A stretch of 64,000 nt of DNA from Escherichia coli (GTDB lineage Bacteria > Pseudomonadota > Gammaproteobacteria > Enterobacterales > Enterobacteriaceae). Positions 2,158 through 46,686 of this stretch are shown here, piece after piece. The first letter of the stretch is position 1. Every line of letters starts with the position of its first letter. The DNA lies in assembly GCF_024223415.1 (NCBI RefSeq), contig NZ_CP100500.1; one strand, given 5' to 3'. The notes beneath the pieces are model-generated. The model saw nothing but the letters and a program-made list of their open reading frames with translations, was not told where the DNA came from and searched no databases. A program made the position numbers and the translations under genes.

Positions 2158-5100
2158 GTGCGCCTGATTATCACTTTTCTGATGGCCTGGTGCCTCAGTT
2201 GGGGGGCGTACGCCGCGACGGCCCCCGATAGCAAACAAATCTCACAAGAACTGGAGCAGGCAAAAGCGGCGAAACCCGCACAGCCGGAAGTCGTAGAGGC
2301 GCTCCAGTCTGCCTTAAATGCGCTTGAGGAACGAAAAGGTTCCCTTGAGCGCATCAAGCAATATCAAGAAGTCATTGATAATTATCCGAAACTCTCCGCT
2401 ACTCTGCGCGCACAATTAAACAACATGCGTGACGAGCCGCGCAGCGTGTCGCCGGGGATGTCTACCGACGCGCTGAATCAGGAAATTCTCCAGGTCAGCA
2501 GTCAGTTGCTGGATAAAAGCCGTCAGGCCCAGCAAGAGCAGGAGCGCGCCCGCGAGATTGCCGATTCGCTGAATCAACTGCCGCAACAGCAAACCGACGC
2601 CCGCCGTCAGTTAAACGAGATCGAGCGCCGCCTGGGAACGCTTACCGGCAATACTCCGCTCAATCAGGCACAAAATTTCGCGTTGCAGTCTGACTCCGCA
2701 CGTCTTAAGGCGCTCGTTGATGAACTGGAGCTGGCGCAGCTGTCTGCCAATAACCGCCAGGAATTAGCGCGCTTGCGCTCAGAGCTGGCGGAAAAAGAGA
2801 GCCAGCAACTGGATGCGTATTTGCAGGCCTTGCGTAATCAATTGAACAGCCAACGCCAGCTTGAGGCAGAGCGGGCGCTGGAAAGTACCGAATTACTAGC
2901 AGAAAACAGTGCCGATTTGCCGAAAGATATCGTCGCGCAATTCAAAATTAACCGCGAACTATCGGCGGCTTTGAATCAACAGGCGCAGCGGATGGATCTC
3001 GTTGCCTCGCAACAGCGTCAGGCTGCCAGCCAGACGTTACAGGTCCGGCAGGCGTTGAATACGCTGCGTGAACAGTCGCAATGGCTGGGATCGTCCAATC
3101 TGCTCGGCGAAGCGTTGCGGGCGCAGGTGGCACGGCTGCCGGAAATGCCGAAACCACAACAGCTTGATACCGAAATGGCGCAGTTGCGTGTGCAACGGTT
3201 ACGTTATGAGGATCTGCTTAATAAACAGCCGCTGCTACGGCAAATTCATCAGGCCGACGGTCAGCCGCTGACTGCCGAGCAAAACCGTATTCTGGAAGCA
3301 CAGCTACGCACTCAGCGTGAGTTGCTGAACTCATTGTTGCAGGGTGGCGACACGCTACTGCTGGAACTGACCAAGCTGAAAGTCTCCAACGGGCAACTGG
3401 AAGATGCGCTGAAAGAAGTGAACGAAGCGACGCACCGCTATCTGTTCTGGACCTCTGACGTGCGCCCGATGACCATCGCCTGGCCGCTGGAAATCGCCCA
3501 GGATCTGCGTCGTCTCATTTCGCTGGACACCTTCAGTCAGTTGGGCAAAGCCAGTGTGATGATGCTGACCAGCAAAGAGACGATTTTGCCGCTGTTTGGC
3601 GCGTTGATTCTGGTCGGTTGCAGTATTTACTCGCGCCGCTATTTTACCCGTTTTCTTGAACGTTCGGCGGCGAAAGTCGGTAAAGTGACTCAGGATCACT
3701 TCTGGCTGACGTTACGCACTCTTTTCTGGTCGATTCTCGTCGCGTCACCGCTGCCGGTGCTGTGGATGACGCTGGGTTACGGCTTGCGCGAGGCGTGGCC
3801 TTATCCGCTGGCGGTCGCGATTGGCGATGGTGTAACGGCCACCGTGCCGCTGCTGTGGGTAGTGATGATTTGCGCCACCTTTGCCCGCCCGAACGGCTTG
3901 TTTATCGCTCATTTTGGCTGGCCGCGCGAACGTGTTTCTCGTGGGATGCGCTACTACCTGATGAGCATCGGGCTTATTGTGCCACTGATTATGGCGCTGA
4001 TGATGTTCGATAACCTCGACGACCGCGAATTTTCCGGTTCGCTGGGACGGCTTTGCTTTATCCTCATTTGCGGTGCGCTGGCGGTGGTCACCCTCAGCCT
4101 GAAAAAGGCCGGGATCCCGCTGTATCTCAACAAAGAGGGCAGCGGCGACAACATTACCAACCATATGCTGTGGAACATGATGATTGGCGCGCCACTGGTT
4201 GCCATTCTGGCGTCGGCGGTGGGTTATCTGGCAACGGCGCAGGCACTGTTAGCGAGGCTTGAAACCTCGGTTGCCATCTGGTTCCTGCTACTGGTGGTTT
4301 ATCACGTTATCCGCCGCTGGATGCTGATCCAACGACGCAGGCTGGCGTTTGACCGGGCGAAGCATCGCCGGGCAGAGATGTTAGCGCAACGTGCGCGTGG
4401 CGAAGAGGAAGCACATCATCACAGTAGCCCGGAAGGGGCAATTGAAGTCGATGAAAGCGAAGTCGATCTCGATGCCATCAGTGCGCAGTCCTTGCGGCTG
4501 GTGCGCTCAATTTTGATGTTGATCGCCCTGCTTTCGGTCATTGTGCTGTGGTCAGAAATCCATTCCGCTTTCGGCTTCCTCGAAAATATTTCGCTGTGGG
4601 ATGTCACCTCCACGGTACAGGGCGTAGAAAGTCTGGAGCCGATTACCCTCGGTGCGGTGCTGATTGCCATTCTGGTGTTTATCATCACCACGCAGCTGGT
4701 GCGCAATCTGCCCGCGCTGCTGGAACTGGCGATTTTGCAGCACCTGGATTTAACGCCGGGTACCGGCTACGCCATCACCACCATCACCAAATATCTGCTG
4801 ATGCTGATTGGCGGGCTGGTCGGCTTCTCGATGATTGGTATTGAGTGGTCGAAATTGCAGTGGCTGGTCGCCGCGCTCGGTGTTGGTCTCGGTTTTGGTT
4901 TGCAGGAAATTTTCGCCAACTTTATCTCTGGCCTGATCATCCTGTTCGAAAAACCGATTCGCATTGGCGATACGGTAACGATCCGCGATCTTACTGGTAG
5001 CGTGACAAAAATTAACACCCGCGCCACCACCATCAGCGACTGGGACCGTAAAGAGATAATCGTGCCGAACAAGGCGTTTATTACCGAGCAGTTTATCAAC

Positions 5101-8654: not shown

Positions 8655-10455
8655 GTGCAAACCTTTCAAGCCGATCTTGCCATTGTAGGCGCCGGTGGCG
8701 CGGGATTACGTGCTGCAATTGCTGCCGCGCAGGCAAATCCAAATGCAAAAATCGCACTAATCTCAAAAGTATACCCGATGCGTAGCCATACCGTTGCTGC
8801 AGAAGGGGGCTCCGCCGCTGTCGCGCAGGATCATGACAGCTTCGAATATCACTTTCACGATACAGTAGCGGGTGGCGACTGGTTGTGTGAGCAGGATGTC
8901 GTGGATTATTTCGTCCACCACTGCCCAACCGAAATGACCCAACTGGAACTGTGGGGATGCCCATGGAGCCGTCGCCCGGATGGTAGCGTCAACGTACGTC
9001 GCTTCGGCGGCATGAAAATCGAGCGTACCTGGTTCGCCGCCGATAAGACCGGCTTCCATATGCTGCACACGCTGTTCCAGACCTCTCTGCAATTCCCGCA
9101 GATCCAGCGTTTTGACGAACATTTCGTGCTGGATATTCTGGTTGATGATGGTCATGTTCGCGGCCTGGTAGCAATGAACATGATGGAAGGCACGCTGGTG
9201 CAGATCCGTGCTAACGCGGTCGTTATGGCTACTGGCGGTGCGGGTCGCGTTTATCGTTACAACACCAACGGCGGCATCGTTACCGGTGACGGTATGGGTA
9301 TGGCGCTAAGCCACGGCGTTCCGCTGCGTGACATGGAGTTCGTTCAGTATCACCCAACCGGTCTGCCAGGTTCCGGTATCCTGATGACCGAAGGTTGCCG
9401 TGGCGAAGGCGGTATTCTGGTCAATAAAAATGGCTACCGTTATCTGCAAGATTACGGCATGGGCCCGGAAACTCCGCTGGGCGAGCCGAAAAACAAATAT
9501 ATGGAACTGGGTCCACGCGACAAAGTCTCTCAGGCCTTCTGGCACGAATGGCGTAAAGGCAACACCATCTCCACGCCGCGTGGCGATGTGGTTTATCTCG
9601 ACCTGCGTCACCTCGGCGAGAAAAAACTGCATGAACGTCTGCCGTTCATCTGCGAACTGGCGAAAGCGTACGTTGGCGTCGATCCGGTTAAAGAACCGAT
9701 TCCGGTACGTCCGACCGCACACTACACCATGGGCGGTATCGAAACCGATCAGAACTGTGAAACCCGCATTAAAGGTCTGTTCGCCGTGGGTGAATGTTCC
9801 TCTGTTGGTCTGCACGGTGCAAACCGTCTGGGTTCTAACTCCCTGGCGGAACTGGTGGTCTTCGGCCGTCTGGCCGGTGAACAAGCGACAGAGCGTGCAG
9901 CAACTGCCGGTAATGGCAACGAAGCGGCAATTGAAGCGCAGGCAGCTGGCGTTGAACAACGTCTGAAAGATCTGGTTAACCAGGATGGCGGCGAAAACTG
10001 GGCGAAGATCCGCGACGAAATGGGCCTGGCTATGGAAGAAGGCTGCGGTATCTACCGTACGCCGGAACTGATGCAGAAAACCATCGACAAGCTGGCAGAG
10101 CTGCAGGAACGCTTCAAGCGCGTGCGCATCACCGACACTTCCAGCGTGTTCAACACCGACCTGCTCTACACCATTGAACTGGGCCACGGTCTGAACGTTG
10201 CTGAATGTATGGCGCACTCCGCAATGGCACGTAAAGAGTCCCGCGGCGCACACCAGCGTCTGGACGAAGGTTGCACCGAGCGTGACGACGTCAACTTCCT
10301 CAAACACACCCTCGCCTTCCGCGATGCTGATGGCACGACTCGCCTGGAGTACAGCGACGTGAAGATTACTACGCTGCCGCCAGCTAAACGCGTTTACGGT
10401 GGCGAAGCGGATGCAGCCGATAAGGCGGAAGCAGCCAATAAGAAGGAGAAGGCGA

Positions 10456-28296: not shown

Positions 28297-28372
28297 GCCC
28301 GGATAGCTCAGTCGGTAGAGCAGGGGATTGAAAATCCCCGTGTCCTTGGTTCGATTCCGAGTCCGGGCACCA
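28297..28372 (+). tRNA. pheU: tRNA-Phe (anticodon GAA), pheU-type
   Basis: 76-nt cloverleaf GCCCGGATAGCTCAGTCGGTAGAGCAGGGGATTGAAAATCCCC...GGTTCGATTCCGAGTCCGGGCACCA with encoded CCA; sits where pheU lies relative to yjdC. Confidence 0.97.
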
Positions 28373-28381
28373 AATTCATAT

Positions 28382-28409
28382 AAACGGACCTCCACGGAGG
28401 TCCGTTTTT
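28382..28409 (+). terminator. Rho-independent terminator after tRNA-Phe
   Basis: aaacggacctcc-acgg-aggtccgttttt hairpin with T-run. Confidence 0.8.
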
Positions 28410-28569: not shown

Positions 28570-29832
28570 ATGGCACTGACTGACGCAAAAATCCGGGCTG
28601 CAAAGCACACTGACAAGGCTTATAAACTCACTGACGGGGCTGGCATGTTCCTGCTGGTACATCCTAATGGTTCCCGTTACTGGCGTCTCCGTTATCGCAT
28701 TCTGGGTAAGGAGAAAACTCTGGCACTTGGTGTATACCCGGAGGTTTCTCTCTCCGAAGCTCGTACAAAACGGGATGAGGCCCGAAAACTGATTTCGGAG
28801 GGGATTGACCCTTGCGAACAGAAAAGAGCTAAAAAAGTAGTCCCTGATTTACAACTCTCTTTTGAACATATTGCACGACGCTGGCATGCCAGTAATAAAC
28901 AATGGGCACAATCACACAGCGATAAGGTACTCAAAAGCCTCGAAACACACGTTTTCCCCTTTATCGGCAACCGGAACATCACAACACTCAATACCCCGGA
29001 CCTGCTTATCCCTGTTCGTGCTGCAGAAGCTAAACAAATTTATGAAATCGCCAGTCGTCTGCAGCAAAGAATATCTGCTGTAATGCGTTATGCCGTACAG
29101 TCTGGCATCATCAGATATAATCCTGCTCTGGATATGGCTGGCGCATTGACTACGGTAAAACGCCAGCATCGCCCCGCTCTTGATCTTTCTCGCCTGCCTG
29201 AACTTTTGTCGCGTATTGGCAGTTACAAGGGGCAACCTGTCACCCAGCTTGCCGTTATGCTGAATTTACTGGTTTTTATTCGTTCCAGTGAACTCAGATA
29301 CGCCCGCTGGTCTGAAATTGATATTGACAATGCCATGTGGACTATTCCAGCCGAACGCGAACCCCTGCCAGGCGTAAAATTCTCACACCGGGGCTCCAAG
29401 ATGCGAACACCACATCTTGTGCCACTCAGCAAACAGGCTGTAGCCATACTGACAGAACTACAGACATGGGCTGGTGAAAATGGTCTGATCTTTACGGGAG
29501 CACATGACCCGCGTAAACCAATCAGTGAAAATACTGTAAATAAAGCCCTGAGGGTGATGGGGTATGACACAACCCAGGATGTCTGTGGCCATGGATTCCG
29601 GGCGATGGCGTGCAGTGCATTGATTGAATCAGGTTTGTGGTCCCGCGATGCTGTGGAACGTCAGATGAGCCATCAGGAGCGTAATGGTGTACGTGCTGCG
29701 TATATCCATAAAGCAGAACATCTGGAAGAACGTCGACTGATGCTACAGTGGTGGGCAGATTTTCTGGATGCGAACAGAGATAAGGGTATCAGCCCGTTTG
29801 AATATGCAAAGATTAACAATCCATTAAAATAG
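28570..29832 (+). CDS. int: P4-type tyrosine integrase (island integrase)
   Basis: 420 aa; N-terminal MALTDAKIRAAK...YWRLRYR typical of P4-like integrases; C-terminal catalytic region with R...HGFR...Y; first gene 3' of tRNA-Phe. Confidence 0.9.
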   Translation: MALTDAKIRAAKHTDKAYKLTDGAGMFLLVHPNGSRYWRLRYRILGKEKTLALGVYPEVSLSEARTKRDEARKLISEGIDPCEQKRAKKVVPDLQLSFEHIARRWHASNKQWAQSHSDKVLKSLETHVFPFIGNRNITTLNTPDLLIPVRAAEAKQIYEIASRLQQRISAVMRYAVQSGIIRYNPALDMAGALTTVKRQHRPALDLSRLPELLSRIGSYKGQPVTQLAVMLNLLVFIRSSELRYARWSEIDIDNAMWTIPAEREPLPGVKFSHRGSKMRTPHLVPLSKQAVAILTELQTWAGENGLIFTGAHDPRKPISENTVNKALRVMGYDTTQDVCGHGFRAMACSALIESGLWSRDAVERQMSHQERNGVRAAYIHKAEHLEERRLMLQWWADFLDANRDKGISPFEYAKINNPLK

Positions 29833-30097
29833 TAAGCAGTCCGGGCTGATTGCCCGGACTGCTTTAACTGATTATTTTTCTTTGTAAATGATGACGAAGA
29901 TTGATGTTCTGGCAAGTTACTCCGGCTTCCATTAAAGTCCCTTCGTCATGTTCTTCAGGCTATTTATGACTGTGATTAGCACCAGGAATATCTGGTTTCC
30001 ATGAGAGCAGGTAATAACCCCCGGTGTTTTCGGCTGTTCTGGTATCCTTGTCCAACACAGGCAGTCATTATAAACGGTAAAAAATGTGGATTTGCCC

Positions 30098-31003
30098 CTA
30101 TATTTCCAGACATCTGTTATCACTTAACCCATTACAGGCCCGCTGCCGCAGATATTCCCGTGGCGAGCGATAACCCAACGCACTATGCGGATGCCATTCG
30201 TTATAATGCTCGAACGCCTCTGCAAGGTTCTTTGCTGCCGTTAACCCGTCTGGTTTGGGCATGACACTGATGTAGTCACGCTTTATCGTTTTCACGAAGC
30301 TCTCTGCTATGCCGTTACTCTCCGGACTCCGCACCGCCGTGTTCTTCGGTTCAAGCCCCAACATCCGGGCAAACTGCCGTGTTTCATTAGCCCGGTAGCA
30401 TGAACCATTATCCGTCAGCCACTCTACTGGAGACGCCGGAAGCTCGTTGCCGAAGCGGCGTTCCACCGCTCCTGGCATGACGTCCTGTACTGTTTCACTG
30501 TTGAAGCCGCCCGTAGTGACCGCCCAGTGCAGTGCCTCACGGTCACAGCAGTCCAGCGCGAACGTGACTCGCAGTTTTTCTCCGTTATCACAGCGGAACT
30601 CGAACCCGTCAGAGCACCATCGCTGATTACTTTCTTTCACAGCCACTCTGCCGGTATGTGCCCGTTTCGATGGCGGTACAGCGGTTTTTCGCTCAAGCAA
30701 CAGCGCATTCTGGCGCATGATCCGGTAAATACGTTTGGCATTGATCGCAGGCATACCATCAAGTTCTGTTTGTCTGCGAAGCAGCGCCCATACCCGACAA
30801 TAACCATATGTGGGTAGCTCTCCGATAACATGGTGTATACGGCGAAGCACATCCGTATCATCCGTGTGACGGCTGCGGCGGCCGTCCTTCCAGTCATCGG
30901 CTCGTCTGAGAATGACGTGCAACTGCGCACGCGACACCCGGAGACAACGGCTGACGAAGCTTACTCCCCATCCCCGGGCAATAAGGGCGCGTGCGCTATC
31001 CAC
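30098..31003 (-). CDS. insD: IS2 transposase InsD (OrfB)
   Basis: 301 aa, near-identical to recalled IS2 InsD ([34 protein letters not shown]...). Confidence 0.92.
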
Positions 31004-31326
31004 TTTTTTGCTCGCCCATATTCAACGGCTTCTTTAAGGAGTTCATTTTCCATCGTTTTTTTGCCGAGCAGACGCTGGAGTTCTTTAATCTGCTTCATGG
31101 CGGCAGCAAGTTCAGAGGCAGGAACGACCTGTTCTCCGGCAGCCACAGCAGTAAGACTTCCCTCCTGGTATTGCTTACGCCAGAGAAATAGCTGGCTGGC
31201 TGCCACACCATGTTGCCGGGCAACAAGGGAGACCGTCATTCCCGGTTCAAAGCTCTGCTGAACGATAGCGATCTTTTCCTGTGTAGTACGCCGTCTGCGT
31301 TTCTCCGGCCCTAAGACATCAATCAT
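30961..31326 (-). CDS. insC: IS2 InsC (OrfA, HTH regulator)
   Basis: ORF trimmed to Met ([26 protein letters not shown]...), 121 aa; overlaps insD as expected for frameshift fusion. Confidence 0.9.
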
Positions 31327-31543
31327 CTGTTCTCCAATGACTAGTCTAAAAACTAGTATTAAGACTATCACTTATTTAAGTGATATTGGTTGTCTGGAGA
31401 TTCAGGGGGCCAGTCTAAAATGTATTCACTGTTATGAAATCAATAGTTCTGACGTACTGTTGAATGTGCTTGCGTTCTGAACCTTGTACAACCAGTACAT
31501 TTGATACCGAATTATAAACAAAACATTGCATCCAACTTTTTCA

Positions 31544-31566
31544 ATATGGACAATAGTTGTCCATAT
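31544..31566. promoter_or_regulatory. Perfect 10-3-10 palindrome (operator-like) in leader of helicase-nuclease gene
   Basis: atatggacaa-tag-ttgtccatat, perfect inverted repeat 54 bp upstream of the ATG at 31620. Confidence 0.4.
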
Positions 31567-31619
31567 GGTGGTTTTATATTCGATAAATCAATGGATTTCA
31601 TTGAGTCATAGGACTGGTA

Positions 31620-34600
31620 ATGGATGAAAATGCTTTAGGGTTTGCCTCATACTGGCGCAACTCGCTTGCGGATGCTGAGTCAGGAAAGGGCAGTTTTGAA
31701 CGGAAAGACGCCAAAAATTTCACTCATTGGCATGGGATAGCGGCGGGACGTCTTGACGAAGCGATTGTCAGTAAATTTTTTAAGGGAGAAAAAGACGATG
31801 TCGAAACGGTCGATGTCATCTTGCGCCCAAAAGTTTATTTCCGGTTACTGCAGCATGGTAAGGACCGTTCTGCAGGTGCGCCTGATATTGTTACCCCGAT
31901 AGTGACGCCAGCCTTGCTAAGCCGTGAGGGTTTTTTATATCCGACGCCAGCGACCTCCATTCCCAGAGACCTGCTTGAACCTTTGCCAAAAGGAGCATTT
32001 TCGATTGGTGAGATTGGGCAGTATGACAAATACAAGACGACCCATACCACGTTCTCTATCAACTTTGATGACAGCGTTGATAAGACTGCCGAAACGCATG
32101 AAGAACGGGAAGCACGATATGCCGCCTTGCAGCAGGAGTGGCGTCAATATCTGTATGACTCAGAGAGGCTACTGAAGAGCGTTGCCAGCGACTGGATTGA
32201 AAAACCTGAGCAATATGAACTCGCTGAGCACGGTTATATTGTTAAAACGGCGCAATCTGGCGGTGCCAGTTTCCATATCCTTTCTCTTTATGATCACCTG
32301 CTTGTTTGCAATAAGGATGTGCCGCTCTTCAATCGATTCGCCTCGCGAGAGGTTCATGCTGCAGAGTCTTTGCTGGCCCCTGGAGCAAAATTCAGCGACA
32401 GGCTTGGACACTCCGGAGATAAGTTTCCGCTGGCAAAGGCTCAGCGCGATGCCTTAAGCCATTTTCTGGATGCTAAACATGGCGATATCCTTGCTGTTAA
32501 TGGCCCTCCTGGAACCGGAAAAACCACGCTGGTGCTTTCTATCATCGCCACGCAGTGGGCCAGAGCGGCTCTCGAAAAATCTGAGCCTCCGGTTATTATC
32601 GCGACTTCAACGAATAACCAGGCTGTAACGAACATTATTGAGGCATTCGGGAAAGACTTTTCGCAAGGTTCAGGTGCGATGGCCGGGCGATGGTTGCCAG
32701 AGCTGAAAAGCTTCGGCGCTTATTTTCCCTCAAGCAGCCGTAAAGCTGAAGCAGCCAAAAAATATCAAACTGAAGATTTCTTCAACCAGGTTGAGTCAAA
32801 AGAGTATGTAGAAGATGCACTGCTGTTTTATCTGGAAAAGGCTAAGGCAGCCTTTCCTGAAAAAGAGTGTTCATCCCCTGAAAAGGTCATTGAACTCCTG
32901 CATGGTCAGTTGGCAGCAAAATCCGAGCAACTGATAAGACTGAACGCAACATGGCAAACGTTAAGCCAGATTCGGGCTGCGCGTGAGCTTATTGCTAATG
33001 ATATTGAGCAATATCTCAATAATTTAAATAAATTACTTTCCGGACAAGAACAAAAAATCACTCTACTGAAGAGTGCTAAAACGGAATGGAAAAAATATCG
33101 CGCCGGTGAATCACTGATCTATTCATTATTTTCCTGGCTTCCGGCGGTTCGCAGTAAGCGACAGTACCAAATACAGCTGTTTCTCGAAGATAAATTAGGT
33201 GCGCTGATTGCAGGAAATCAATGGTCTGATCCTGAAACTATCGAAAGTAATATTGATGGGCTGCTCAATTCCGCTGAGCGCGAGCAAACAACATACCGGC
33301 AGCAGATTGACTCCGCCCATGAAATCATTCTTAAAGAACAGCAGGCGGTTCAGGAGTGGCAGAGACTGGCTCTTGATTTAGGGTATGAGGGCGACGAGGA
33401 ACTGAGCTTCTCACAGGCCGATGAACTGGCTGATACGCAGATTCGCTTCCCTGCATTTTTACTGACGACTCACTACTGGGAAGGTCGTTGGCTGATGGAT
33501 ATGGCCAGCATTGATGATCTGCAGGAAGAGAAGAAGAAAAAAGGCGCTAAAGGGGTAACCGCCCGTTGGCAACGTCGAATGAAACTCACTCCATGTGTGG
33601 TGATGACATGCTATATGCTGCCCGGCAATATGCAGATAAGTGAGCACAAAGGACAGCGTAAATTCGAGAAAAGTTATTTGTATGATTTTGCCGATTTACT
33701 CATTGTCGATGAAGCCGGGCAGGTGCTTCCTGAAGTGGCTGCTGCCTCGTTTGCATTAGCTAAGAAGGCATTAGTGATTGGCGATACGGAGCAGATCCCG
33801 CCAATATGGAGTATTGCTCCTGCGATTGATATCGGTAACATGCTGGCGGAAAAAATTCTGTCTGGCAGTACGCAAGAAGAGATTACCGAGAAATATACGG
33901 CAATCGCAGACCTTGGTAAAAGTGCCGCATCTGGCAGCGTTATGAAAATAGCGCAGTTTGCTTCGCGCTATCAATATGATCCCGAACTGGCTCGTGGTAT
34001 GTACCTATATGAACACCGCCGGTGCTACGACAATATTATTGGATACTGTAATACGCTCTGCTATCACGGTAAGTTGTTGCCTAAAAGAGGGCGTGAAGAG
34101 AGCAATTTAATGCCCGCAATGGGGTATCTCCATATTGATGGTAAAGGAGAGCTGGCAAGTAGTGGAAGTCGATATAATTTGCTTGAGGCTGAAACGATAG
34201 CGGTCTGGTTGGCAGAGAACCAGCAAAATATTGAAGCGCATTACGGTAAATCGCTTCATGAAGTTGTCGGTATTGTGACGCCTTTTAGCGCTCAGGTATC
34301 CACTATCAAACAGGTGCTGGGCAAACAAGGTATCAGTACAGGCACGAATGAAAAGTCGCTCACAGTGGGCACCGTGCACTCTCTTCAGGGAGCGGAAAGA
34401 GCGATTGTGATATTCTCGCCAGTCTATTCAAAACATGAAGACGGCGGGTTTATTGATAGCGATAACAGCATGCTGAATGTTGCAGTCTCCCGTGCGAAGG
34501 ACAGTTTTCTGGTCTTCGGCGATATGGACCTGTTTGAGGTCCAGCCAGCCTCATCGCCACGGGGATTACTGGCAAAATACCTCTTTGAGTCAGAGAAGAA

Positions 34601-35135
34601 TGCGCTCTCTTTTGATTATAAAGAGCGTAAGGATTTAAAAACCGCCGGGACCAAAATCTACACACTTCATGGTGTGGAGCAACATGATAATTTCCTGAAT
34701 CAGACATTTGAAAATACCAGTAAACACATCACGATAGTTTCTCCATGGCTGACCTGGCAAAGGCTGGAGCAAACCGGTTTTCTTGATTCCATGATTGCGG
34801 CGTGTTCACGTGGAATTAACGTCACGATAGTCACTGACAGAAGCTACAACACTGAACATAATGATTTTGAGAAGCGAAAAGAGAAGCAGCAGAACTTTAA
34901 AGCGGCGCTGGAGAAACTGAATGCGCTGGGTATTGCTACAAAGCTGGTAAACCGTGTTCATAGCAAAATTGTTATTGGTGATGATGGTTTGCTGTGCGTG
35001 GGATCGTTCAACTGGTTTAGTGCGACACGGGAAGCGCGATATGAACGATACGATACATCAATGGTTTATTGCGGTGATAACCTGAAGGGTGAGATTGAGG
35101 CTATTTATAATAGTCTTGAGAGGCGGCAGGTTTAG
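31620..35135 (+). CDS. Superfamily-1 (Upf1/DNA2-like) helicase fused to C-terminal PLD-family (HKD) nuclease domain; candidate single-gene defence protein
   Basis: 1171 aa. Walker [10 protein letters not shown] (nt 32502-32528, aa 295-303); Walker B/motif II DEAGQ (nt 33708-33722, aa 697-701); SF1 motifs [18 protein letters not shown] and [16 protein letters not shown]; C-terminal HSKIVIGDD...GSFNWF = HxK(x4)D(x6)GSxN PLD signature (nt 34959-35030). About 290-aa N-terminal region and about 390-aa insert between Walker A and B have no motif I recognise. Confidence 0.75.
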
Positions 35136-35243: not shown

Positions 35244-36743
35244 TTATCTTCTGTCCGGAAGAATCAGAGGCTGTGGTTTCAGACTGTCTGCCGGTACATT
35301 CCTGTCTCCGTTAAAAACAATAACGGGTTCATTATCTTCGTCTGTCAGCGGATTGAATGGCGGTATATTTTCAGTACGAATGCCGGTCAGCCACTGAAAA
35401 ATACCTGCGAAATGACGGGCACTGATTTTTCTGCTGACGGACTGATGAGACGTGATGTCACTGGCGGTAATAATCAGGGGAACGCTGTAGCCTCCTTGTA
35501 TATGGCCATCATGATGAACAGGATTAGCACTGTCGCTGACCGACAGACCATGGTCAGAAAAGTAAAGCATGGCAAAATGACGGGAGTGCCGGCGAAGGAT
35601 ACCATCAAGCTGACCGAGAAAGTTATCCAGTTTACTGATGCTGGCGAGGTAACAGGCAATCTTTCGGGGATACTGCTCCAGGTAATGATTCGGCCAGGAG
35701 TTAAGTCGGTCACACGGATTCGGATGAGAGCCAATCATGTGCAGGAATATCACCTTCGGAGAGGATTTATCCGCCAGTGCACGTTCTGTTTCCTGTAACA
35801 ACAACATGTCATCCGTTTTACGGGAAGCAAAGCTGCCTTTCTTGAGGAAAACGGTATGCTCCGCATCAGAAGCAATAACAGAGATGCGTGTATCATGCTC
35901 CCCCAGTTTTCCCTGATTGGATATCCACCATGTGCTGTATCCTGCTTTTGCTGCCAGCGCCACCACGTTGTTGCCGGAGTCAGGGTTCTGCTCATAGTCA
36001 TAAATCAATGTCCGGCTCAGGGAAGGTACGGTACTGGCTGCTGCCGATGTATAGCCGTCAATAAATAAACCGGGAGCCGTATTCAGCCATGGTGTGGTTG
36101 GCACGGGATAGCCATATACCGACATATAATCCCTGCGCACACTCTCACCAGTAACGATAACAATCGTGTCATACAACGGTGTTCCCGGCAGGATTTTCCA
36201 GTTGTCAGCCCCGTGCTGACTCAGTTGTTTATAACGCTGCATTTCACGCAATGTGTCAGTTGTTCCCACAACAATTCCTTTAACCATCCGCAACGGCCAG
36301 CTGTTTACAGAGCATAATACGAACAGCAGCAGTGCCAGCCAGTTACGGTGACCGCGGTGGTGTGTCCGCCAGAAAATCACCATGAATACCAGAATCGCGG
36401 CACTGACCAGAAAATGATAAACAGGAATCATCCCGGTAAACTCTGCAGCCTCATCAGCCGTGGTCTGCAGCAACGCGACAATAAAACTGTTGTTGATTTT
36501 ACCGTACGTCATACCCGCAGGCGCATACAGTGCACAACAGAACAGAAATAACAGCGTTGTAATGGATGTGAGGGTATTTCTGTGTGCAAGGAGCAGAAGG
36601 AGAAACAGAAGCAGCACATTTCCTGTGGCATTCTTCTCAGTGTATCCGCATGCAATTGTGATTATCACAGAAATAACAAAAAAGAATAAAAACAATAAAA
36701 TCCGGGGTGTGTCGCCCGGACAAAACAGTTTTCTGATATTCAT
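35244..36743 (-). CDS. Sulfatase-family inner-membrane protein, probable phosphoethanolamine transferase (YhbX/YbiP/OpgE-like)
   Basis: 499 aa; N-terminal multi-TM region then periplasmic domain with alkaline-phosphatase-superfamily motifs (VTGESVRRDY, HMIGSHPNPCD, YFSDHG); AT-rich flanks. Confidence 0.6.
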   Translation of the reverse strand: MNIRKLFCPGDTPRILLFLFFFVISVIITIACGYTEKNATGNVLLLFLLLLLAHRNTLTSITTLLFLFCCALYAPAGMTYGKINNSFIVALLQTTADEAAEFTGMIPVYHFLVSAAILVFMVIFWRTHHRGHRNWLALLLFVLCSVNSWPLRMVKGIVVGTTDTLREMQRYKQLSQHGADNWKILPGTPLYDTIVIVTGESVRRDYMSVYGYPVPTTPWLNTAPGLFIDGYTSAAASTVPSLSRTLIYDYEQNPDSGNNVVALAAKAGYSTWWISNQGKLGEHDTRISVIASDAEHTVFLKKGSFASRKTDDMLLLQETERALADKSSPKVIFLHMIGSHPNPCDRLNSWPNHYLEQYPRKIACYLASISKLDNFLGQLDGILRRHSRHFAMLYFSDHGLSVSDSANPVHHDGHIQGGYSVPLIITASDITSHQSVSRKISARHFAGIFQWLTGIRTENIPPFNPLTDEDNEPVIVFNGDRNVPADSLKPQPLILPDRR

Positions 36744-46211: not shown

Positions 46212-46490
46212 CTAGGCATGTGCCACATCGCGGTAATGACCGGCCAGTTCCGCCTGCATCGTCTGCCATTCGGGAGACTTCATACGTACCCTGACCACCG
46301 ATTCAGCCTCACCCGCATCAGCAGGCAACAGGCCCCAAAAGCGGCTCTGAAGCTGCTCAGGCGCATCCAGCAGAACCACCCTGACACCATCAGGAGGATT
46401 AACGGGAAGATGCTGAGAATCGGTATAAATTGTTGTGCCGGCAGACGCTGCCAGCGGCAGGAAAAACAGGGAACAGAAAATCCGGTACAT
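46212..46490 (-). CDS. Small secreted protein of conjugative-element remnant
   Basis: 92-aa ORF with signal peptide MYRIFCSLFFLPLAASA; upstream of the TraU-like fragment on same strand. Confidence 0.3.
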   Translation of the reverse strand: MYRIFCSLFFLPLAASAGTTIYTDSQHLPVNPPDGVRVVLLDAPEQLQSRFWGLLPADAGEAESVVRVRMKSPEWQTMQAELAGHYRDVAHA

Positions 46491-46686
46491 CGCACGCTGT
46501 CAGTCAGATATTATCTGACTGACAGCGTGCGAAGAAAGCGCTCATTTATCAGCAATAAATTAAAAACGGGATTAAAAAATTACGGTGGGATCCGGGGAAG
46601 TGTATCTGCCAAGCATAACAGACAGTCTGTGATTATACCCGGCCTTTCACAAAGCCGGGGAACTGATTCATACCAAGTGGTGATTT

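What the first reader, a model, noticed from the sequence alone, without database searches (positions are those of the whole stretch)
31486..31566. Perfect palindromes in the leader of the helicase-nuclease gene
atatggacaa-tag-ttgtccatat (31544-31566) is a perfect 10-bp-arm inverted repeat centred about 65 bp before the ATG; a second dyad tgtac-aacca-gtaca lies at 31486-31500. Perfect dyads this long are unlikely by chance in 200 bp and suggest a dimeric repressor operator or an RNA hairpin in the 5' UTR. No regulator gene is adjacent on this side, so the factor could be host- or phage-encoded.
Basis: seen in the sequence. Interest (0 to 1): 0.5.

Follow-up and report, generated by a model that had tools for sequence, protein, structure and literature searches.

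The report
Palindrome on Mokosh defence-gene promoter
The perfect 23-bp palindrome is real, but it sits on what looks like the core promoter of a known single-gene anti-phage system (Mokosh type II, mkoC); only its left half is conserved in relatives, so it is most likely an ordinary promoter whose symmetry arose recently in one E. coli lineage, not a conserved operator or RNA switch.

Summary
The main dyad ATATGGACAA-TAG-TTGTCCATAT is at 31544-31566, centred 65 bp before the ATG at 31620. The second dyad is at 31485-31499, one base off, and is at chance level.

The gene is a full-length MkoC, the single-gene Mokosh type II defence protein (SF1 helicase plus PLD nuclease). It lies in a pheU island, with an IS2 inserted about 200 bp upstream.

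The roughly 100-bp leader travels with mkoC into different islands and genera and is about as conserved as the coding sequence. Fifty unique orthologous leaders share TTGC, then 16-17 nt, then TGGACAAT, then NN, then TTAAYCAT. I read this as a -35 element, a -10 element (GACAAT, inside the left arm) and a start site at the conserved CAT inside the right arm. This is inferred; no start site was mapped.

The right arm is conserved as TTAAYCAT, not as the complement of the left arm, so symmetry is not what is selected.

The perfect form is in 131 of about 890 E. coli carriers. The 9/10, 8/10 and 6/10 alleles are commoner, and 6/10 is ancestral.

I found no conserved RNA fold, no Rfam match, no other genomic copies and no conserved neighbouring regulator. 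A lineage-specific operator remains possible but unsupported.

The parts
31544..31566 (.). Perfect inverted repeat ATATGGACAA-TAG-TTGTCCATAT (10-bp arms, 3-nt loop).
   Evidence: As RNA it folds at -11.2 kcal/mol, z = -2.8.
31547..31554 (+). TGGACAAT, the invariant block within the left arm plus the first loop base. It contains the inferred -10 hexamer GACAAT (31549-31554).
   Evidence: Invariant in all 16 leaders found by protein search or E. coli DNA-similarity search. Also present in 50 unique leaders, but there it was part of the search pattern for the metagenome subset. In the crude PWM scan, TTGCnn-16/17-GACAAT is the only candidate at the same position in all 13 orthologues scanned.
31526..31531 (+). 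TTGCAT, the inferred -35 element. It lies 17 nt upstream of GACAAT here and 16 nt in all other clades.
   Evidence: TTG is invariant and C is at least 90% conserved. Conservation of the leader begins just upstream of it.
31516..31525 (+). A-rich tract AAACAAAACA directly upstream of the -35 element. It resembles the promoter-proximal part of an UP element; this is inference from memory.
   Evidence: Partly conserved (AAcaAatta) in 50 leaders.
31557..31566 (+). Right arm TTGTCCATAT. The conserved residues are TT (31557-31558) and CAT (31562-31564). The A at 31563 is the inferred transcription start.
   Evidence: The orthologue consensus here is TTAAYCAT, not the complement of the left arm. All indels among leaders lie downstream of this CAT.
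31573..31613 (+). Conserved blocks of the inferred 5' UTR: TTTATA (31573-31578), AATCAATGGATTT (31586-31598) and the Shine-Dalgarno AGGA (31610-31613).
   Evidence: RNAalifold finds no consensus structure.
31620..35135 (+). mkoC, the Mokosh type II defence gene (1171 aa; SF1 Upf1-like helicase plus C-terminal PLD nuclease).
   Evidence: PADLOC MkoC model PDLC03924: E = 0, 1693 bits, residues 1-1169 against profile 1-1135 of 1136. Pfam: AAA_11, AAA_12, PLDc_2.
31485..31499 (.). Second, short dyad TGTAC-AACCA-GTACA. Chance level and not conserved.
30087..31417 (-). IS2 (1331 bp) inserted about 200 bp upstream of the mkoC ATG. The 5-bp target duplication AAATG is at 30082-30086 and 31418-31422. 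IS2 is not part of the dyad but bounds the leader.
   Evidence: NCBIfam IS2 TnpA and TnpB. Comparison with the uninterrupted E. coli 536 sequence.

Best explanation
The dyad lies on the core promoter of mkoC, a stand-alone Mokosh type II anti-phage gene.

Shown: a compact leader of about 100 bp moves with the gene between islands and genera. Its conserved skeleton is an A-rich tract, TTGC(G/A)n, a fixed 16-17-nt spacer, (C)GTGGACAAT, NN, TTAAYCAT, and then a stretch that tolerates indels and ends in a Shine-Dalgarno sequence.

Inferred: TTGCnn is the sigma-70 -35 element. GACAAT, inside the left arm, is the -10 element. Transcription starts at the conserved CAT inside the right arm, near 31563, giving a 5' UTR of about 57 nt.

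On this reading the left arm is invariant because RNA polymerase reads it. The right arm is constrained as the discriminator and start-site region.

Shown: the perfect 10/10 symmetry is a recent, lineage-specific state found in some E. coli and E. albertii. Four transitions in an ancestral 6/10 quasi-palindrome produced it, during a wider remodelling of that promoter segment.

My reading is that the symmetry itself has no conserved function. If any protein does bind it, the position (-19 to +4) predicts repression by promoter occlusion.
For: 1. Gene identity: MkoC, E = 0, full length; helicase and PLD domains. Type II Mokosh is defined as a single gene with these two domains. The systems in that study, Mokosh among them, were synthesised with their intergenic regions to keep native promoters, and three Mokosh systems defended E. 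coli (bioRxiv 10.1101/2022.05.11.491447).

2. The leader travels with the gene. The same leader is found at pheU, leuX and selC islands and next to unrelated neighbours. No neighbouring gene is conserved.

3. Conservation pattern. Identity over -100..-1 is about equal to that of the coding sequence in most pairs (for example 0.77/0.77 and 0.88/0.86). Over -200..-101 it falls to about 0.45-0.50 in distant pairs. A promoter for this mobile cassette therefore has to lie within the conserved 100 bp.

4. Promoter candidate. TTG(C) and TGGACAAT are invariant, at a fixed spacing of 16 nt (17 in the window's clade), in 16 leaders found without using those motifs. All indels lie downstream of CAT. In a crude PWM scan, TTGCnn-16/17-GACAAT is the only candidate at the same position in all 13 orthologues, and it ranks in the top three in each.

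5. Asymmetry. In 50 unique leaders the right-arm region is conserved as TTAAYCAT. The complement of the left arm would be TTGTCCA. The central pairs C-G and A-T hold in only 4 and 8 of 16 leaders.

6. Allele counts in 5,426 E. coli genomes: 10/10 in 131, 9/10 in 265, 8/10 in 343 and 6/10 in 143. The 6/10 allele is also found in Salmonella, Enterobacter hormaechei, Citrobacter and an MkoC only 88% identical.

7. The window's allele differs from the 6/10 type at about 10 of 47 nt in -100..-54, while the coding sequences are 97% identical.
Against: - No transcription start site has been mapped. The promoter is inferred from conservation alone.
- The hexamers are weak. TTGCAT/GACAAT match the consensus at 7 of 12 positions here, and TTGCGA/GACAAT at 8 of 12 in other clades.
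- The tool's consensus scan (9 of 12 needed) reports no promoter in 31100-31800.
- My PWM score of 6.6-7.9 bits is only about the median best score of random 200-bp pieces of the window.
- TGGACA could instead be read as a -35 element (5 of 6 matches).
- Part of the dyad does persist in orthologues: TGG..AA / TT..CCA, with 75.6% of cells paired when G-U is counted, against 28-49% for the slid controls.
- All four substitutions that made the dyad perfect repair mispairs. Simulated p is 0.0003-0.004, but the case was picked because it is perfect. Some selection for symmetry in this lineage cannot be excluded.
Confidence: 0.6

Rival explanations
1. Lineage-specific operator. In the E. coli/E. albertii sub-lineage the -10/+1 region became a true binding site for a dimeric repressor, encoded by the host or by a phage or other mobile element. 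The repressor occludes the mkoC promoter.
For: The dyad spans the inferred -10 and start site. Four of four derived substitutions restore complementarity, simulated p 0.0003-0.004. The promoter segment is remodelled relative to the coding sequence. A perfect 10-bp arm is rare locally, p = 0.0037 per 200 bp.
Against: The perfect form is in only 15% of E. coli carriers, and the 8/10 and 9/10 alleles are commoner. There is no other copy of the dyad or half-site above chance in the window. No copy occurs outside mkoC in 5,426 genomes. No adjacent or conserved regulator exists. Mokosh systems cloned with their native intergenic regions defended E. coli. The p-value suffers from ascertainment, since the case was chosen for being perfect.
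Confidence: 0.17
2. Binding site for a nucleoid-associated protein, Fis. The 15-mer GGACAATAGTTGTCC (31548-31562) is a Fis site that modulates the promoter with growth phase.
For: It matches the Fis consensus GnnYAnnnnnTRnnC (PMC10380432) at all six specified positions. Reading the alignments by eye, the right-arm positions that the consensus specifies (T at +3, R at +4, C at +7) are kept in most orthologous leaders. Fis is a host dimer shared across Enterobacterales, which would explain the lack of a linked regulator.
Against: The consensus is very degenerate. It occurs 50 times in the window against 56.6 expected from shuffles. Other conserved right-arm bases (the A at +5, and the A and T of the CAT at +8/+9) are not explained by it. 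No binding data exist because K-12 lacks the gene.
Confidence: 0.08
3. RNA hairpin. The dyad is transcribed and acts as a 5' stabilising stem-loop, an attenuator or a weak intrinsic terminator (hairpin followed by GGUGGUUUUAUAUU).
For: It folds at -11.2 kcal/mol, z = -2.8. The terminator-like scan flags it.
Against: One terminator-like site is what shuffles give (mean 0.7). The stem has only 3 G-C pairs, and 5 nt separate it from the U run. Orthologues do not fold: -4.3 kcal/mol with z = +0.2 for the 6/10 allele, and no stable fold in distant ones. RNAalifold gives -1.27 kcal/mol, 4 pairs and no compensatory change. There is no Rfam match. Nothing upstream of -100 is conserved that could be a promoter feeding it. 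Under the inferred promoter the left arm is not transcribed.
Confidence: 0.05
4. Pure coincidence with the promoter elsewhere. The conserved blocks have another role, for example TGGACA as a -35 element paired with a downstream -10, or a site for an unknown monomeric factor. The palindrome is then an accident of drift or of quasi-palindrome template-switch mutation.
For: About 0.6-1 perfect 10-bp dyad is expected per 64 kb scanned. TGGACA matches TTGACA at 5 of 6 positions. All four perfecting changes are transitions at A:C or G:T mispairs.
Against: The distance from TGGACA to the conserved TTTATA block is 18-20 nt and varies by 2. The candidate -10 hexamers at 16-18 nt are not conserved and mostly lack the A at position 2. 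A single template switch cannot produce the observed pattern, because the corrections go in both directions.
Confidence: 0.1

Closest known systems
Sigma-70 promoters with an overlapping palindromic operator (the lac O1, LexA-box or phage-repressor type of arrangement; from general knowledge)
   Same: An inverted repeat covers the inferred -10 hexamer and start site, so any bound dimer would block RNA polymerase.
   Different: There is no cognate repressor gene and no second copy of the site. The two half-sites are conserved unequally: the left is invariant, while the right follows its own non-complementary consensus TTAAYCAT. The perfect form is a minority allele.
Mokosh type II defence system (MkoC; Millman et al., bioRxiv 10.1101/2022.05.11.491447)
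   Same: The downstream gene is a full-length MkoC: a single polypeptide with a Upf1-like SF1 helicase and a C-terminal PLD nuclease, with no conserved partner gene, located in integrase-associated islands.
   Different: Nothing about its promoter or regulation appears in the literature I could search. The leader anatomy given here is new description, not a new kind of system.
Rho-independent terminators and attenuators
   Same: A hairpin followed by a U-rich stretch, flagged by the simple scan.
   Different: The stem is A+T-rich with 3 G-C pairs, and the U run starts 5 nt after it. The hairpin is absent from most orthologues, and no conserved upstream promoter feeds it.
Fis binding sites (GnnYAnnnnnTRnnC, PMC10380432)
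   Same: The central 15 bp of the dyad fit the consensus, as do most orthologous leaders.
   Different: The consensus matches at the chance rate in this window (50 observed, 56.6 expected). This is a lead only.
Quasi-palindrome 'perfecting' mutations by template switching (Ripley-type; from memory)
   Same: An imperfect inverted repeat (6/10) became perfect through changes that each copy the opposite arm.
   Different: The corrections run in both directions, and intermediate alleles (9/10, 8/10) exist. Several independent point transitions explain the pattern at least as well.

Membership tests
Mokosh type II (MkoC), for the gene downstream | A single protein matching the MkoC profile over its full length. 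| tested here: met
   PADLOC PDLC03924: E = 0, 1693.5 bits, residues 1-1169 against profile 1-1135 of 1136.
Mokosh type II (MkoC), for the gene downstream | An N-terminal SF1/Upf1-like helicase plus a C-terminal PLD nuclease in one polypeptide. | tested here: met
   Pfam AAA_11 (272-492, 679-729), AAA_12 (777-969), PLDc_2 (1028-1138).
Mokosh type II (MkoC), for the gene downstream | Stand-alone gene, with no MkoA/MkoB partner. | tested here: met
   Neighbours differ among loci and none is conserved.
Mokosh type II (MkoC), for the gene downstream | Protects against phage. | not testable with these tools
   Reported for three cloned Mokosh systems in E. coli. Not shown for this allele.
Sigma-70 core promoter | -35 and -10 hexamers resembling TTGACA and TATAAT, 16-18 nt apart. 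| tested here: inconclusive
   TTGCAT-17-GACAAT matches at 7 of 12 positions (8 of 12 in other clades), with A at position 2 and T at position 6 of the -10. It falls below the tool's 9-of-12 threshold. The PWM score is about the random median. It is, however, the only candidate conserved in position and spacing in all orthologues.
Sigma-70 core promoter | A mapped transcription start 5-9 nt downstream of the -10 element. | not testable with these tools
   No start-site data are available. The A at 31563, in the conserved CAT, is inferred.
Operator of a dimeric repressor | Both half-sites conserved as a dyad in orthologous promoters. | tested here: not met
   The left arm is invariant. The right arm is conserved as TTAAYCAT, not as the complement. 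The central pairs hold in 4 of 16 and 8 of 16 leaders.
Operator of a dimeric repressor | A cognate regulator gene linked to the site, or further sites elsewhere (a regulon). | tested here: not met
   No regulator is adjacent or conserved. There is a single copy per genome, always at mkoC, in 880 E. coli genomes. Half-sites occur at the chance rate in the window. The one viral-contig match lies inside an unrelated ORF.
Operator of a dimeric repressor | Protein binding to the site. | not testable with these tools
   Needs EMSA, footprinting or pull-down.
Intrinsic terminator or attenuator | A G+C-rich stem directly followed by a U run, conserved among orthologues. | tested here: not met
   The stem has 3 G-C pairs out of 10, and the U run starts after GGUGG. 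Flagged sites occur at the chance rate. The hairpin is absent from orthologues.
Known cis-regulatory RNA (Rfam) | A match to a curated covariance model. | tested here: not met
   The best E-values are 0.6-10, far below the gathering scores, and all hits are to eukaryotic or unrelated families.
Fis site | A match to GnnYAnnnnnTRnnC. | tested here: met
   31548-31562 matches, but the pattern occurs 50 times in the window against 56.6 expected, so the match carries little information.
Fis site | Fis binding or Fis-dependent expression. | not testable with these tools
   No data. K-12 lacks the locus.

The most novel reading that the evidence does not exclude
In one E. coli/E. albertii sub-lineage, selection converted the -10/+1 region of the Mokosh II promoter into a perfect 23-bp palindrome through four symmetry-restoring transitions. 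This would create a new operator, or a supercoiling-sensitive or cruciform element, that places the constitutive defence gene mkoC under control of an unlinked host- or phage-encoded dimeric factor.
Probability: 0.1. Interest if true: 0.45.

Novelty: new member of a known kind. Interest (0 to 1): 0.2.

Why it matters
Nothing about how Mokosh type II is expressed turned up in the papers I could search. This work gives the leader a concrete anatomy that can be tested: an inferred -35 element, -10 element, start site and a 5' UTR of about 57 nt. These travel with the gene across Enterobacterales.

It also identifies four natural promoter alleles (10/10, 9/10, 8/10 and 6/10 symmetry) that form a ready-made allelic series for reporter assays.

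For the scan, the lesson is cautionary. A locally improbable perfect palindrome can be a lineage-specific embellishment of an ordinary promoter element. Comparing orthologues, rather than judging perfection in one sequence, is what tells an operator from a promoter hexamer.

If the minority reading is true, it would be an example of a defence-gene promoter acquiring an operator through point mutations.

Tried and rejected
1. Second dyad (31485-31499): 5-bp arms occur 512 times in the window. It is not conserved. Chance.

2. Upstream ORF: ATG at 31546 to TAG at 31611 gives 21 codons ([21 protein letters not shown]). There is no Shine-Dalgarno sequence. In orthologues the frame stops after 4-6 codons or runs on. 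Stop-preserving variants (TAA, TAG, TGA) are no commoner than expected. Rejected.

3. TGGACA as a -35 element with the TTTATA/TATATy block as the -10: the spacing is 18-22 nt and varies by 2, and the last -10 position is C in most clades. Rejected in favour of TTGCnn/GACAAT.

4. A sigma-54-type reading (TGGCAC-N5-TTGC): the spacing is one base short and the right arm is not conserved. By inspection only. Rejected.

5. Terminator for the upstream integrase: the integrase has its own 13-bp G+C-rich hairpin at 29834-29864, directly after its stop codon. Rejected.

6. Part of IS2 or an IS2 InsA target: IS2 ends at 31417, 127 bp away. The perfect dyad also occurs without IS2, in the E. albertii locus L011. 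Rejected.

7. Dispersed repeat or mobile-element end: one copy per genome, none on plasmids, and no inverted partner downstream of mkoC. Rejected.

8. Viral collection scan for TATGGACAANNNTTGTCCATA: one hit, inside an unrelated 320-aa ORF. Chance.

9. Rfam search and RNAalifold: nothing.

10. Literature search on Mokosh regulation: nothing found.

11. TGCGA-N6-TCGCA dyad over the -35 element and spacer in the distant clade: it looked operator-like in 7 genome loci. With 32 more leaders the right arm varies (TCACA, TCTCA, TCGTA). The left arm was fixed by my search pattern, so covariation could not be judged. Left open and recorded in passing.

Full report
**Observation**

The main dyad is exactly as described. 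ATATGGACAA-TAG-TTGTCCATAT lies at 31544-31566, with 10/10 complementary arms and a 3-nt loop. Its centre is 65 bp before the ATG at 31620.

The second dyad, TGTAC-AACCA-GTACA, is at 31485-31499, one base lower than stated.

In first-order Markov simulations with the leader's composition (33.5% GC), a perfect arm of at least 10 bp with a loop of at most 8 nt appears in 0.37% of 200-bp sequences. The dyad is therefore locally improbable. The window has 6 such loci, most of them G+C-rich hairpins that look like terminators.

Five-bp arms like those of the second dyad occur 512 times in the window. The second dyad is broken in close relatives. It is chance.

**Context**

The window is an E. coli chromosome segment: dsbD, dicD/yjdC, then tRNA-Phe (28297-28372), then a P4-type integrase (28570-29832).

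An IS2 of 1331 bp lies on the minus strand at 30087-31417. Its 5-bp target duplication AAATG is at 30082-30086 and 31418-31422.

Next come the leader and a 1171-aa ORF (31620-35135), followed by a convergent phosphoethanolamine transferase gene.

The ORF is a full-length MkoC. The PADLOC model PDLC03924 matches with E = 0 and 1693 bits, end to end. Pfam finds AAA_11 and AAA_12 helicase domains and a C-terminal PLDc_2 domain.

[quoted passage not shown] The systems in that study were synthesised with their intergenic regions so as to keep their native promoters, and three Mokosh systems defended E. coli (bioRxiv 10.1101/2022.05.11.491447).

**The leader is part of a mobile gene cassette**

The leader plus the start of the gene occurs in 891 of 5,426 complete E. 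coli genomes. It is always chromosomal and usually present once.

It is found at pheU (this window; AR_0085 is 100% identical and has the same IS2), at leuX (E. coli 536 and WW2) and at selC (VTB96933v). The upstream and downstream genes differ between these sites.

A protein-based scan of one genome per species found 15 loci, 12 of them in Enterobacterales with 62-96% identity (Citrobacter, Enterobacter, Tatumella, Erwinia, Phytobacter and others) and 3 in Ruegeria and related Rhodobacteraceae at about 40%. Look-ups of database proteins added Salmonella, E. hormaechei and an MkoC that is 88% identical.

No neighbouring ORF is conserved among these loci. There is therefore no linked regulator.

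Nucleotide identity over -100..-1 is about the same as in the coding sequence in most pairs. Over -200..-101 it drops to about 45-50% in distant pairs. Whatever drives mkoC has to lie in the 100 bp before the ATG.

**Phylogenetic footprint**

I aligned 16 leaders found by protein search or by E. coli DNA-similarity search. The invariant columns are:
- TTG(C);
- after a fixed 16 nt (17 nt in the window's clade), TGGACAAT;
- then TT and CAT inside the right arm;
- then TTTAnA, AAnTCAA....TT and a Shine-Dalgarno sequence.

A DNA-pattern scan of metagenomes (TTGCGA-N12-CGTGGACAATNNTT) returned 51 loci. In 38 of them an MkoC homologue or its conserved start follows about 92 nt downstream. The other 13 are unrelated, which is about the number expected at random.

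Fifty unique leaders give this consensus:
AAcaAattaTTGCgatCg..cTcgCAtCGTGGACAATg.TTAacCAT.....g..TTTAtAtcaac.AaATCAAta...GGAtggg.AATGGAc

For the metagenome subset the bases of the search pattern are fixed by construction. The informative part is everything outside the pattern.

Two points follow:
1. All indels lie downstream of CAT, and the TTGC-to-GACAAT spacing never varies beyond 16-17 nt. This is the behaviour expected of -35/-10 elements followed by a UTR.
2. The right-arm region is conserved as TTAAYCAT. The complement of the invariant left arm would be TTGTCCA. The two central positions are conserved as non-complementary bases.

The constraint is therefore on two different sequence elements, not on symmetry.

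Pair counts agree. The outer TGG/CCA and AA/TT pairs persist. The central C-G and A-T pairs hold in only 4 and 8 of 16 sequences. Changes on both sides occur only at the two outermost pairs, no more often than in shuffled controls.

**Promoter reading (inferred)**

I read TTGCAT (31526-31531), a 17-nt spacer and GACAAT (31549-31554) as the promoter. The conserved CAT (31562-31564) would supply the start site at about 31563. An A-rich tract (31516-31525) lies just upstream.

In a crude PWM scan that I wrote from textbook hexamer frequencies, this is the only candidate at the same position in all 13 orthologues. It ranks in the top three in each.

The weaknesses are real:
- The hexamers match the consensus at only 7-8 of 12 positions.
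- The tool's scan, which needs 9 of 12, finds no promoter.
- The PWM score is about the median best score of random 200-bp pieces of the window.

The evidence is positional conservation, not motif strength.

The alternative of TGGACA as a -35 element fails on spacing. The distance to the TTTATA block is 18-20 nt and variable, and the -10 candidates at 16-18 nt are not conserved.

On my reading the left arm of the dyad is the -10 region and the right arm is the discriminator and start site. The left arm would then not be transcribed.

**The perfect symmetry is recent and a minority state**

Four 31-mers account for 882 of the 891 E. coli carriers:

| Allele | Pairs | Genomes |
|---|---|---|
| Window type (perfect) | 10/10 | 131 |
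| ...CCATAC | 9/10 | 265 |
| E. coli 536 type (AGCTGTCCATAC) | 8/10 | 343 |
| ACGTGGACAATAGTTATCCATAC | 6/10 | 143 |

The 6/10 allele is also the one found in Salmonella, E. hormaechei, C. koseri, Citrobacter NCU1 and the 88%-identical MkoC. The next outgroup, UBA7338, shares its ACG and TTATCC states. It is therefore ancestral.

The window's allele differs from the 6/10 allele at about 10 of 47 nt in -100..-54, although the coding sequences are 97% identical. The promoter segment was remodelled or recombined.

Four of these changes fall in the dyad. All four are transitions that repair A:C or G:T mispairs. Four random substitutions achieve this with p = 0.0003 if all positions are free, or p = 0.004 if only the variable positions can change.

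That result is suggestive. It is weakened because the dyad was picked for being perfect, and because imperfect alleles predominate in nature.

**RNA-level readings**

As RNA the window's dyad folds at -11.2 kcal/mol (z = -2.8). The 6/10 allele gives -4.3 kcal/mol (z = +0.2). Distant orthologues have no stable hairpin.

RNAalifold finds 4 pairs at -1.27 kcal/mol with no compensatory change. Rfam has no credible match.

The terminator-like flag is at the chance rate, one site found against 0.7 expected. The stem has only 3 G-C pairs, and a 5-nt gap precedes the U run.

**Other copies**

The window has no second copy at up to 3 mismatches, and half-sites occur at the chance rate.

A word-11 blastn of the 31-mer against 5,426 E. 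coli genomes finds 880 genomes, with one place each (at most two) and none on plasmids. This is essentially the set of mkoC carriers.

The single match in the viral collection lies inside an unrelated ORF.

**Host factors**

The central 15 bp fit the Fis consensus GnnYAnnnnnTRnnC (PMC10380432), as do most orthologous leaders. That pattern occurs 50 times in the window against 56.6 expected. It is a lead, not evidence.

**Verdict**

The best-supported explanation is that the dyad lies on the core promoter of a known defence gene. Its left half is the conserved -10 region. Its perfect symmetry is a lineage-specific state with no demonstrated function.

An operator in this sub-lineage is possible, and its position predicts repression. 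Start-site mapping and a reporter series of the four natural alleles would settle the question.

Noticed in passing
window 30087-31417 (IS2), 30082-30086 and 31418-31422 (AAATG): A complete 1331-bp IS2 with a 5-bp target duplication lies between the P4-type integrase and the mkoC leader, about 105 bp upstream of the inferred -35 element. The same insertion is in E. coli AR_0085 (100% identical). The IS2 end that faces mkoC is the one next to the IS2 tnpA gene.
   Followed up: partly
window 31586-31598: AATCAATGGATTT in the inferred 5' UTR fits the IHF consensus WATCAAnnnnTTR (PMC10380432) at 12 of 13 positions. The columns that the consensus specifies (A, A, T, C, A, A ... T, T) are the ones conserved across 50 leaders.
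   Followed up: partly
window 31580-31589: TCGATAAATC resembles the H-NS high-affinity motif TCGATAAATT (recalled from memory). The leader is 33.5% GC, against about 45-49% for mkoC. The motif is present only in the E. coli-type clade.
   Followed up: no
L007, L008, L010, L015-L018 and the metagenome loci L024-L072, about -93 to -77 from the ATG: Distant mkoC clades carry a different dyad, TGCGA-N6-TCGCA, covering the -35 element and spacer, with a variable centre. The right arm varies in some members (TCACA, TCTCA, TCGTA). The left arm was fixed by my search pattern, so covariation could not be judged.
   Followed up: partly
L003 (E. coli VTB96933v) 4833-5003 and 8828-9838; window 29866-30086 and 35244-36743: A C-terminal fragment of a phosphoethanolamine transferase gene is annotated upstream of the mkoC leader, and a second copy (complete in the window) lies downstream. 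mkoC and this gene appear together in pheU, leuX and selC islands, which hints at a past duplication or an insertion into that gene.
   Followed up: no
window 46490-46532: A very long perfect palindrome (21-bp arms, 1-nt centre): TCGCACGCTGTCAGTCAGATA-T-TATCTGACTGACAGCGTGCGA. It abuts the start of a 92-aa minus-strand ORF (46212-46490). It is by far the longest dyad in the window.
   Followed up: no
window 28382-28407 and 29834-29864: G+C-rich perfect hairpins lie directly after tRNA-Phe (12-bp arms) and directly after the integrase stop codon (13-bp arms). They are probably terminators. In E. coli 536 the loop of the second one is inverted (GATTG against CAATC), which looks like a small loop inversion.
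   Followed up: no
window 31546-31611: A 21-codon ORF starts at the ATG inside the left arm and ends 8 nt before the mkoC ATG. It has no Shine-Dalgarno sequence, and in most orthologues it is cut to 4 codons (GTG GAC AAT NNT TAA).
   Followed up: yes
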